This document shows, piece by piece, positions 22,517 through 22,874 of a DNA stretch of 64,000 nucleotides; position 1 is the stretch's first letter, and every line of letters begins with the position of its first letter. The position numbers and the translations under genes are program-made. The notes beneath the pieces are model-generated. The model was not told where the DNA came from and ran no database searches. It saw only the letters and a list, made by a program, of their open reading frames with translations. The DNA comes from Escherichia coli (lineage in GTDB: Bacteria > Pseudomonadota > Gammaproteobacteria > Enterobacterales > Enterobacteriaceae): assembly GCF_003334355.1 (NCBI RefSeq), contig NZ_QOWP01000019.1; one strand, given 5' to 3'.

Positions 22517-22724
22517 TGTTCTCTTCTTCAGGTTAAAAAATAAGGCGCAACGAAGATAACAAACCGCCGCGTTTAATGAAATGAGCAGCCTCTCCCTGAC
22601 GCAAATTTTGCACAAAAAATAGGCTTTAGTGATTTGTTTTTGTTCAAAATCATGCCAAATCCGTGATCGGGGTAAAAAAAAGGTTGCATGAAAACGCGAG
22701 CGGAGTATAGTGCGCATCCACGGA

Positions 22725-22801
22725 CGCGGGGTGGAGCAGCCTGGTAGCTCGTCGGGCTCATAACCCGAAGGTCGTCGGTTCAAATCCGGCCCCCGCAACC
22801 A
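22725..22801 (+). tRNA. metZ: Initiator tRNA-fMet (anticodon CAT), single copy
   Basis: 77-nt sequence cgcggggtggagcagcc...ccggcccccgcaacca recognised as the initiator tRNA; promoter ttgcat(16 bp)tatagt at 22684-22711. Confidence 0.95.
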
Positions 22802-22808
22802 ATTATTG

Positions 22809-22831
22809 AACACCCTAACGGGTGTTTTTTT
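22809..22831 (+). terminator. Rho-independent terminator after the tRNA
   Basis: acaccc-taac-gggtgt hairpin followed by ttttttt. Confidence 0.8.
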
Positions 22832-22846
22832 GTTTCTGGTCTCCCA

Positions 22847-22874
22847 TAAAAAAGCGCCATTCAGCGCCTTTTTA
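22847..22874 (-). terminator. amiC terminator (hairpin flanked by A- and T-runs, possibly bidirectional)
   Basis: aaaaaagcgcc-attca-gcgcctttttat directly after the amiC stop. Confidence 0.7.

What the first reader, a model, noticed from the sequence alone, without database searches (positions are those of the whole stretch)
22517..22874. Single initiator tRNA-fMet gene where K-12 carries a tandem triplet
Between mltA and amiC there is exactly one 77-nt tRNA-fMet with its own promoter and terminator. The K-12 reference has three tandem copies (metZ-metW-metV) at this locus. This is either a real copy-number difference, relevant to initiator tRNA dosage, or a collapsed tandem repeat in the assembly.
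Basis: partly seen in the sequence, partly recalled or inferred. Interest (0 to 1): 0.45.

Follow-up and report, generated by a model that had tools for sequence, protein, structure and literature searches.

The report
One initiator tRNA gene, not three
This E. coli strain carries one copy of the initiator tRNA gene where the K-12 reference has three in a row; the loss looks real and recent, but it is an ordinary copy-number variant already present in about 2% of finished E. coli genomes.

Summary
Window 22725-22801 (+) is the only tRNA in the 64 kb. It is a tRNA-fMet identical to K-12 metZ/W/V, and it lies between mltA and amiC behind the native metZWV promoter and before the native terminator. 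Against K-12 the intergenic region is 100% identical except for a clean 220-bp gap, which equals two 110-bp repeat units.

The closest finished genome, PSS-12 (8 mismatches in 25 kb), has three copies, so the change is recent.

In 5,426 complete RefSeq E. coli genomes I counted 109 with one copy, 116 with two, 3,236 with three (flank to flank) and 67 with four or more.

Collapse versus real loss could be tested indirectly. The window matches NCBI draft GCA_003334355.1. An independent k=31 assembly of run ERR4578542, 100% identical over 18.35 kb, ends exactly 30 nt inside the tRNA. A unitig simulation predicts that end for one copy plus metY. A sister lineage with three copies ends at 26 nt, also as predicted.

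I conclude that the deletion is real (about 0.85), caused by recombination or slippage between the repeats. It probably halves initiator tRNA gene dosage from 4 to 2. This is known biology and of low interest.

The parts
21419..22516 (-). mltA (murein transglycosylase A), the left flank of the locus
   Evidence: The 365-aa product has 0 differences from K-12 b2813. The same gene is annotated in EcPF16 and PSS-12.
22674..22711 (+). metZWV-type promoter: A-tract 22674-22681, -35 TTGCAT 22684-22689, 16-nt spacer, -10 TATAGT 22706-22711, followed by a GC-rich discriminator GCGC
   Evidence: The sequence is 100% identical to K-12. Kapoor et al. mapped promoter-down mutations to a G just upstream of the -10 box and to a T within it (PMC3017606). 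The consensus scan missed it because the -35 matches only 3 of 6 positions. The assignment is inferred and was not tested here.
22725..22801 (+). The single initiator tRNA-fMet gene, of tRNAfMet1 type (G46) with an encoded CCA end. It combines the metZ upstream flank with the metV downstream flank.
   Evidence: ARAGORN and Rfam both detect it. One search shows the C1xA72 mismatch, three G:C pairs next to the anticodon loop, and G46. It is identical to K-12 metZ/W/V.
22723..22805 (.). Interval within which the 220-bp deletion junction must lie. This sequence is identical between repeat units, so the exact crossover point cannot be defined.
   Evidence: The BLAST segments against K-12 overlap at 22723-22805, and the alignment gap is exactly 220 bp, or two 110-bp units.
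22808..22837 (+). Intrinsic terminator of the tRNA transcription unit: an 8-bp stem with a 4-nt loop, followed by TTTTGTTTCT
   Evidence: Detected and identical to the sequence after metV in K-12.
22875..24128 (-). amiC (N-acetylmuramoyl-L-alanine amidase), the right flank of the locus
   Evidence: The 417-aa product has 0 differences from K-12 b2817.

Best explanation
This is the normal E. coli metZWV initiator-tRNA transcription unit after two of its three 110-bp tandem units (77-nt tRNA plus 33-nt spacer) were deleted. One intact tRNAfMet1 gene remains between the unchanged promoter and the unchanged terminator. The deletion arose recently in this lineage, by unequal homologous recombination or replication slippage between the identical 77-81-nt direct repeats. 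It is a real feature of the genome and not an assembly collapse. The remaining gene should be transcribed and processed as in K-12. With metY elsewhere in the genome, the strain would have two initiator tRNA genes instead of four. Initiator tRNA level follows gene number, so the expected result is about half the tRNAfMet. Expected consequences are slightly slower growth in rich medium, possibly better performance in poor medium, and somewhat relaxed initiation fidelity. Shown here: the anatomy, the population frequencies, the recency, and the k-mer-level absence of spacer junctions. Inferred: the deletion mechanism, the existence and identity of metY, and all physiological effects.
For: There is one tRNA-fMet in the window, and it carries the initiator features. 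The flanks are 100% identical to K-12 apart from a clean 220-bp gap, and the whole 64 kb is collinear with K-12 with no other rearrangement. The closest complete genome, PSS-12, differs by 8 mismatches in 25 kb and has three copies, so the change is recent. The census of 5,426 complete genomes gives 109 with one copy, 116 with two, 3,236 with three and 67 with four or more. The one-copy genomes fall into flank identity classes from 100% to 98.2%, so loss has happened repeatedly. The window is identical to NCBI draft GCA_003334355.1 contig QOWP01000019.1 over 23,543 nt. The independent Logan k=31 contig ERR4578542_42 is 100% identical to the window over 18,350 nt and ends 30 nt inside the tRNA, at window 22772. 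The simulation gives 30 nt only for one copy plus a second fMet gene with a different 3' flank, and gives 26 or 28 nt for two or three copies. The control Logan contig SRR23474264_26 comes from the sister lineage, whose NCBI draft has three copies, and it ends at 26 nt. K-12 metY is followed by C rather than A, which explains the break at 30 nt. Short-read NCBI drafts resolve three or two copies. [quoted passage not shown]
Against: I could not examine raw reads or read depth for the window's own assembly. ERR4578542 may be a different isolate of the same clone, so the read-level evidence is one step removed. I checked only the amiC-side contig end, not the mltA side. Logan contigs pass through graph simplification that my unitig simulation does not model, although the three-copy control behaved as predicted. 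Among complete genomes the one-copy calls cluster by sequencing project and include several K-12 laboratory derivatives, so collapse artefacts or very frequent loss clearly occur at this locus somewhere. I did not see metY in this strain. Its presence is inferred only from the contig break.
Confidence: 0.85

Rival explanations
1. Assembly collapse: the strain really has three (or two) tandem copies, and the assembler skipped the loops formed by the 110-bp repeats, producing a one-copy contig.
For: The window comes from a draft WGS assembly. The repeat period of 110 bp is shorter than typical reads, and loops in a de Bruijn graph can be dropped. One-copy calls in 'complete' genomes cluster by project (the WP*-ESBL, GF*, Pap*, CP0672xx, TUM* and STK/STS series). 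They also include K-12 derivatives such as MG1655p, J53, ME8067, MC1061, OV2 and C3026, whose ancestor has three copies. That pattern suggests pipeline effects.
Against: An independent k=31 assembly of a run with identical sequence shows no branch at the positions where a tRNA-to-spacer junction would force one. It breaks only where metY would, and the three-copy control breaks 4 nt earlier exactly as simulated. The two K-12 spacers differ, so with k above 110 the array is unambiguous. NCBI short-read drafts with 50-500 kb contigs resolve three copies (L012-L017) or two (L020).
Confidence: 0.11
2. Ancestral state: this lineage never had three copies, and the one-copy arrangement predates the triplication seen in K-12.
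For: None directly. One copy is the simplest arrangement.
Against: The closest relatives have three copies: PSS-12 (8 mismatches in 25 kb) and the ST361-type genomes at 99.7%, whose matches span 25,220 bp for a 25,000-bp query. Three copies is the large majority state across all flank haplotypes. The flanks are 100% identical to K-12, which leaves no time for an old split.
Confidence: 0.02
3. The remaining gene is not a functional initiator, for example a decaying remnant or an elongator tRNA-Met.
For: None.
Against: It is 77 of 77 nt identical to K-12 metZ/W/V, with the C1xA72 mismatch, the three G:C pairs, the CAU anticodon and a standard cloverleaf at -30.3 kcal/mol. The promoter and terminator are unchanged.
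Confidence: 0.01

Closest known systems
E. coli K-12 metZWV operon (metZ b2814, metW b2815, metV b2816)
   Same: It occupies the same chromosomal position between mltA and amiC. The promoter region, tRNA sequence (tRNAfMet1, G46) and terminator are identical.
   Different: The window has one gene instead of three. The two 33-nt spacers and two tRNA copies (220 bp in all) are missing.
One-copy alleles in 109 complete RefSeq E. coli genomes (for example EcPF16 NZ_CP054224.1 and O104:H4 2011C-3493 NC_018658.1)
   Same: They have an identical arrangement, and EcPF16 is 100% identical over 1,201 nt spanning the locus.
   Different: They belong to other lineages. None is among the 60 best matches to 25 kb of the window except TUM14664 at 99.6%, so these are independent events or artefacts.
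Engineered E. coli strains with reduced initiator tRNA gene number or expression (Kapoor et al. 2011, PMC3017606; Samhita et al. 2014, J Bacteriol 196:2607; tRNA transcription-unit deletion set, PMC11480407)
   Same: They also have lowered tRNAfMet gene dosage, and they provide the expected phenotypes: slower growth in rich medium, cold sensitivity when dosage is very low, relaxed initiation fidelity, and an advantage in poor medium.
   Different: Those are laboratory constructs or promoter mutants. Here a natural isolate keeps one copy with an intact promoter, which is a milder reduction than deleting metZWV entirely.
Amplification of initiator tRNA genes in Salmonella as compensation for loss of formylation (Nilsson et al. 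2006, PNAS 103:6976)
   Same: It shows the same tandem initiator-tRNA locus changing copy number by recombination between repeats.
   Different: The direction is opposite (gain), and it occurred under laboratory selection. I saw only the title, in a reference list. The details come from my own recollection and were not checked.
metY (b3171), the fourth initiator tRNA gene upstream of rimP-nusA-infB
   Same: It encodes the same tRNA, differing from it only by A46 in K-12.
   Different: It sits at a different locus and is followed by C rather than A after the CCA end. It is not in this window.

Membership tests
Bacterial initiator tRNA (tRNA-fMet) | CAU anticodon in a 7-nt anticodon loop | tested here: met
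   ARAGORN reports anticodon cat at position 35, and the loop is CTCATAA.
Bacterial initiator tRNA (tRNA-fMet) | [quoted passage not shown] | tested here: met
   Nucleotide 1 is C and the base opposite is A. The minimum-free-energy structure leaves position 1 unpaired, and the Rfam alignment marks 1:72 as a non-standard pair.
Bacterial initiator tRNA (tRNA-fMet) | Three consecutive G:C pairs (G29-G31:C39-C41) in the anticodon stem | tested here: met
   The anticodon stem is TCGGG / CCCGA. The feature is defined in PMC3017606.
Bacterial initiator tRNA (tRNA-fMet) | [quoted passage not shown] | not testable with these tools
   This is inferred from 77 of 77 nt identity to K-12 tRNAfMet1.
tRNAfMet1 (metZWV type) as opposed to tRNAfMet2 (K-12 metY type) | G rather than A at position 46 | tested here: met
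   The variable loop is AGGTC, so position 46 is G. K-12 metY reads GAAGATCG there, so it has A46.
metZWV transcription unit | Location between mltA and amiC, with the K-12 promoter and terminator | tested here: met
metZWV transcription unit | Three tandem tRNA genes with a 110-bp period | tested here: not met
   The window has one copy and a 220-bp gap relative to K-12.
Collapsed tandem repeat (assembly artefact) | Reads contain tRNA-to-spacer junctions that are absent from the contig | tested here: not met
   This test is indirect. The Logan k=31 contig from ERR4578542 (identical sequence) runs 30 nt into the tRNA. Any spacer junction would stop it at 26 or 28 nt, and the three-copy control stops at 26.
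Collapsed tandem repeat (assembly artefact) | Read depth over the repeat well above what the assembled copy number predicts | not testable with these tools

The most novel reading that the evidence does not exclude
The loss is adaptive rather than neutral. Under this reading, E. coli lineages repeatedly shrink (1-2 copies) or expand (4 or more copies) the metZWV array by repeat recombination, tuning initiator tRNA dosage to their growth niche. This lineage would then have been selected for low dosage, giving a slow-growth or nutrient-poor lifestyle or relaxed start-codon fidelity. The locus would act as a natural, reversible contingency dial for translation initiation capacity.
Probability: 0.12. 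Interest if true: 0.45.

Novelty: already known. Interest (0 to 1): 0.14.

Why it matters
Initiator tRNA abundance follows gene number in E. coli, and it influences both growth rate and the fidelity of start-site selection (PMC3017606). A natural isolate with half the usual gene number is therefore a ready-made test of laboratory results showing that fewer copies cost fitness in rich medium and help in poor medium. There is also a practical lesson: copy number at this locus varies in roughly 5% of finished genomes, and some of those calls cluster by sequencing project, so tRNA gene counts taken from assemblies should be checked. Beyond that, the feature is an ordinary allele of a well-studied locus.

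Tried and rejected
1. My first census used the count of genomes with at least 80% query coverage, which gave 226. That count mixed one-copy and two-copy genomes, because the tool joins overlapping pieces (for example H41). I replaced it with E-value cut-offs that only a full-length single alignment can pass.

2. Estimating three-copy genomes by subtraction gave about 5,134, which was too optimistic. The direct count is 3,236. About 1,900 genomes could not be classified with flank-to-flank queries. I did not examine them. A genomic island after the last copy, as in L023, or divergent flanks could account for some.

3. The consensus promoter scan found nothing. I did not take this as absence of a promoter, because the -35 matches only 3 of 6 positions and the region is identical to the characterised K-12 promoter.

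4. A look-up with the K-12 RecB allele, intended to give a Logan control, returned only long NCBI contigs. A look-up with PSS-12 ArgA led to a different lineage carrying the metV type VI secretion (T6SS) island. The PSS-12 RecB allele finally gave a usable three-copy control.

5. A look-up with the window's CsdA, meant to check the mltA-side contig end, showed only the NCBI contig and a 3-kb Logan contig that does not reach the tRNA.

6. Samhita 2014 (PMC4097586) and Nilsson 2006 (PMC1459004) are not held, so I cite them only through other papers.

7. Literature searches for the assembly and run accessions found nothing.

8. I did not scan other species or metagenomes, because the answer would not change the verdict.

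Full report
**1. What is there**

ARAGORN finds a single tRNA in the 64-kb window, tRNA-Met(CAT) at 22725-22801 on the + strand. Rfam's tRNA model scores 61.4 bits at the same place. An exact-string search finds no second copy on either strand.

The gene has the defining marks of a bacterial initiator:
- C at position 1 faces A at position 72, and the folded structure leaves that position unpaired.
- The anticodon stem TCGGG/CCCGA gives three consecutive G:C pairs next to the CTCATAA loop.
- Position 46 is G, the tRNAfMet1 (metZWV) type. K-12 metY has A46 (features as defined in PMC3017606).

The finding's coordinates, 22517-22874, are exactly the intergenic region. mltA is 21419-22516 (-) and amiC is 22875-24128 (-), and both products are identical to the K-12 proteins.

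**2. Comparison with K-12**

MG1655 carries metZ, metW and metV at 2947387-2947683, with a 110-bp period and two slightly different 33-nt spacers. The window aligns to K-12 with every one of 391 positions identical, apart from one clean 220-bp gap that equals two repeat units. The upstream flank is that of metZ and the downstream flank is that of metV. The crossover can only be placed within the roughly 81 nt that are identical between units, 22723-22805.

Across the whole 64 kb the window is collinear with K-12 2,924,663-2,988,700 at about 99% identity. The missing 220 bp is the only structural difference.

The promoter region is unchanged: an A-tract, TTGCAT at 22684-22689, a 16-nt spacer, TATAGT at 22706-22711, then GCGC. 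This agrees with the -10 box in which Kapoor et al. mapped down-mutations. The simple consensus scan missed it because the -35 matches only 3 of 6 positions. The terminator hairpin and T-run at 22808-22837 were detected.

**3. How common is this**

I used E-value cut-offs that only a full-length single alignment can pass, and counted among 5,426 complete RefSeq E. coli genomes:

| Copies at the locus | Genomes |
|---|---|
| 1 | 109 |
| 2 | 116 |
| 3 (flank to flank) | 3,236 |
| 4 or more | 67 (26 of them match at two offsets, so 5 or more) |

The sum 109 + 116 = 225 nearly matches the 226 genomes found by a cruder coverage criterion. About 1,900 genomes were not classifiable with these flank-to-flank queries. 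I did not examine them. An island inserted after the last copy, as seen in L023, or more divergent flanks could account for some. One copy is therefore seen in at least 2.0% of all genomes, and in about 3% of the classifiable ones.

The one-copy genomes span flank identity classes from 100% down to 98.2%, so the state has arisen many times.

**4. Recency**

The best match to 25 kb of the window is strain PSS-12, with 8 mismatches in 25 kb plus an IS1 in fucP. PSS-12 has three annotated copies. The next-best genomes, many of them named strain 361 or ST361, match at 99.7% over spans of 25,220 bp, which again means three copies. The loss is therefore younger than the split from these close relatives.

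**5. Real or collapsed**

The window's exact RecB allele is rare, occurring on only 8 contigs. One of them is NCBI draft GCA_003334355.1, contig QOWP01000019.1 (84,834 bp). It is identical to the window over 23,543 nt and has the one-copy locus, so it is almost certainly the source.

A second, independent assembly exists. Logan contig ERR4578542_42 (k=31) is 100% identical to the window over 18,350 nt and stops 30 nt inside the 3' end of the tRNA, at window position 22772.

In a k=31 graph, a contig coming from the amiC side must stop where another copy of the tRNA is followed by a different base:
- Spacer 1 shares ATTA with the downstream flank, which forces a stop after 26 tRNA nt.
- Spacer 2 shares AT, which forces a stop after 28 nt.
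- K-12 metY is followed by C rather than A, which forces a stop after 30 nt.

My unitig simulation reproduces these numbers exactly:

| Simulated genome | tRNA nt included before the contig stops |
|---|---|
| 1 copy plus metY | 30 |
| 2 copies with spacer 2 | 28 |
| 2 copies with spacer 1, or 3 copies | 26 |
| 1 copy without metY | no stop; the contig runs through |

As a real control I used the PSS-12 RecB allele. Its NCBI draft (L025) has three copies, and its Logan contig SRR23474264_26 stops after 26 nt, four bases earlier than ERR4578542.

So the k-mer graph of ERR4578542 contains no tRNA-to-spacer junction, and it does contain a second fMet gene with a metY-like 3' flank. In addition, short-read NCBI drafts carrying the K-12 RecB allele resolve three copies (L012-L017) or two (L020), so collapse is not the routine outcome. 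I put the real deletion at about 0.85 and collapse at about 0.1.

The remaining doubts are these:
- I could not see reads of the window's own assembly.
- Only the amiC side was checked.
- One-copy calls among 'complete' genomes cluster by project and include K-12 derivatives. Artefacts, or very frequent loss in culture, therefore do occur at this locus.

**6. Mechanism and consequences**

These points are inferred. Identical 77-81-nt direct repeats spaced 110 bp apart are classic substrates for unequal crossing-over or slipped-strand misalignment. This is established knowledge of repeat-mediated deletion and was not tested here. The presence of both contractions (one or two copies) and expansions (four, five or more) in the census fits that view.

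The surviving gene keeps the native promoter and terminator, so it should be expressed. [quoted passage not shown] They also found that low tRNAfMet causes a minor growth defect, cold sensitivity and initiation by non-initiator tRNAs (PMC3017606). Deleting the whole metZWV unit is viable but impairs growth (PMC11480407). Loss of some copies is reported to be deleterious in rich medium and advantageous in poor medium (Samhita 2014, as summarised in PMC9981150, and PMC7949028). With one copy here plus metY, the expected dosage is 2 of 4, a milder reduction than any of those deletions.

**7. Comparison and novelty**

The element is a member of the initiator tRNA family by every sequence test. It is the metZWV transcription unit by position, promoter and terminator, and it fails only the 'three copies' feature. 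The same allele is already present in 109 finished genomes, and the physiology of reduced initiator tRNA dosage has been studied directly. I rate it as already known and of low interest.

The most novel reading not excluded is that contraction and expansion of this array is a selected, reversible way of tuning initiation capacity to niche. I give that about 0.12.

Noticed in passing
L023 4170-4470 (Logan SRR28692588_78): In another lineage with the same ArgA protein as PSS-12, amiC is preceded by a type VI secretion (T6SS) gene cluster rather than by mltA. The cluster's edge carries a partial tRNA-fMet 3' end (ggcccccgcaaccaattattgaac). This is the known island downstream of metV (E. coli W paper, PMC3032704). 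Such islands may contribute to the roughly 1,900 complete genomes that my flank-to-flank queries could not classify.
   Followed up: partly
RefSeq complete genomes listed: One-copy calls cluster by sequencing project: the WP*-ESBL/STN, GF*, Pap*, CP0672xx wastewater, TUM*, STK/STS, CE00* and LH* series. They also include K-12 laboratory derivatives (MG1655p, J53, ME8067, MC1061, OV2, C3026), and a DH5a assembly has two copies. Either the array is lost often in culture or some pipelines collapse it.
   Followed up: partly
RefSeq complete genomes listed: The array also expands. Sixty-seven genomes have four or more tandem tRNA-fMet copies, and 26 of them match a four-copy query at two offsets, so they have five or more (for example MRSN346355, AR_0114, 675SK2).
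   Followed up: no
window 9573-10889, compared with L003 1-1667: The closest complete genome, PSS-12, has an IS1A insertion splitting fucP. The window's fucP is intact and its product is identical to K-12's.
   Followed up: yes
window 21181-21418 (tcdA-mltA intergenic), Rfam hit at 21255-21297 (-): There is a match to Rfam ES036 (CssrF sRNA) at 46.5 bits. In several NCBI drafts (L012, L014, L015) this intergenic region is 76 bp instead of 238 bp, so the segment containing the hit is a presence/absence polymorphism.
   Followed up: no
window 18034-18239 (+) and 51221-51505 (-): The expected small RNA genes GcvB and the tandem pair OmrA/OmrB are present at their K-12 positions.
   Followed up: yes
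window 63821-64000: The last 180 nt or so of the window have no megablast match to the collinear K-12 region (around yqeH/yqeI, K-12 position 2,988,700). The strains diverge there.
   Followed up: no
L019 19843-20600 (GCA_905330715.2): A genome carrying the K-12 RecB allele has an IS1 inserted at the 3' end of mltA, next to the tRNA array. Its mltA product is 338 aa instead of 365 aa.
   Followed up: no
window 22846-22872: A second A-run / GCGC hairpin / T-run (aaaaaagcgccattcagcgccttttt) lies between the tRNA terminator and the amiC stop codon. It could serve as the amiC terminator on the minus strand. The scan did not flag it, and it is identical in K-12.
   Followed up: no
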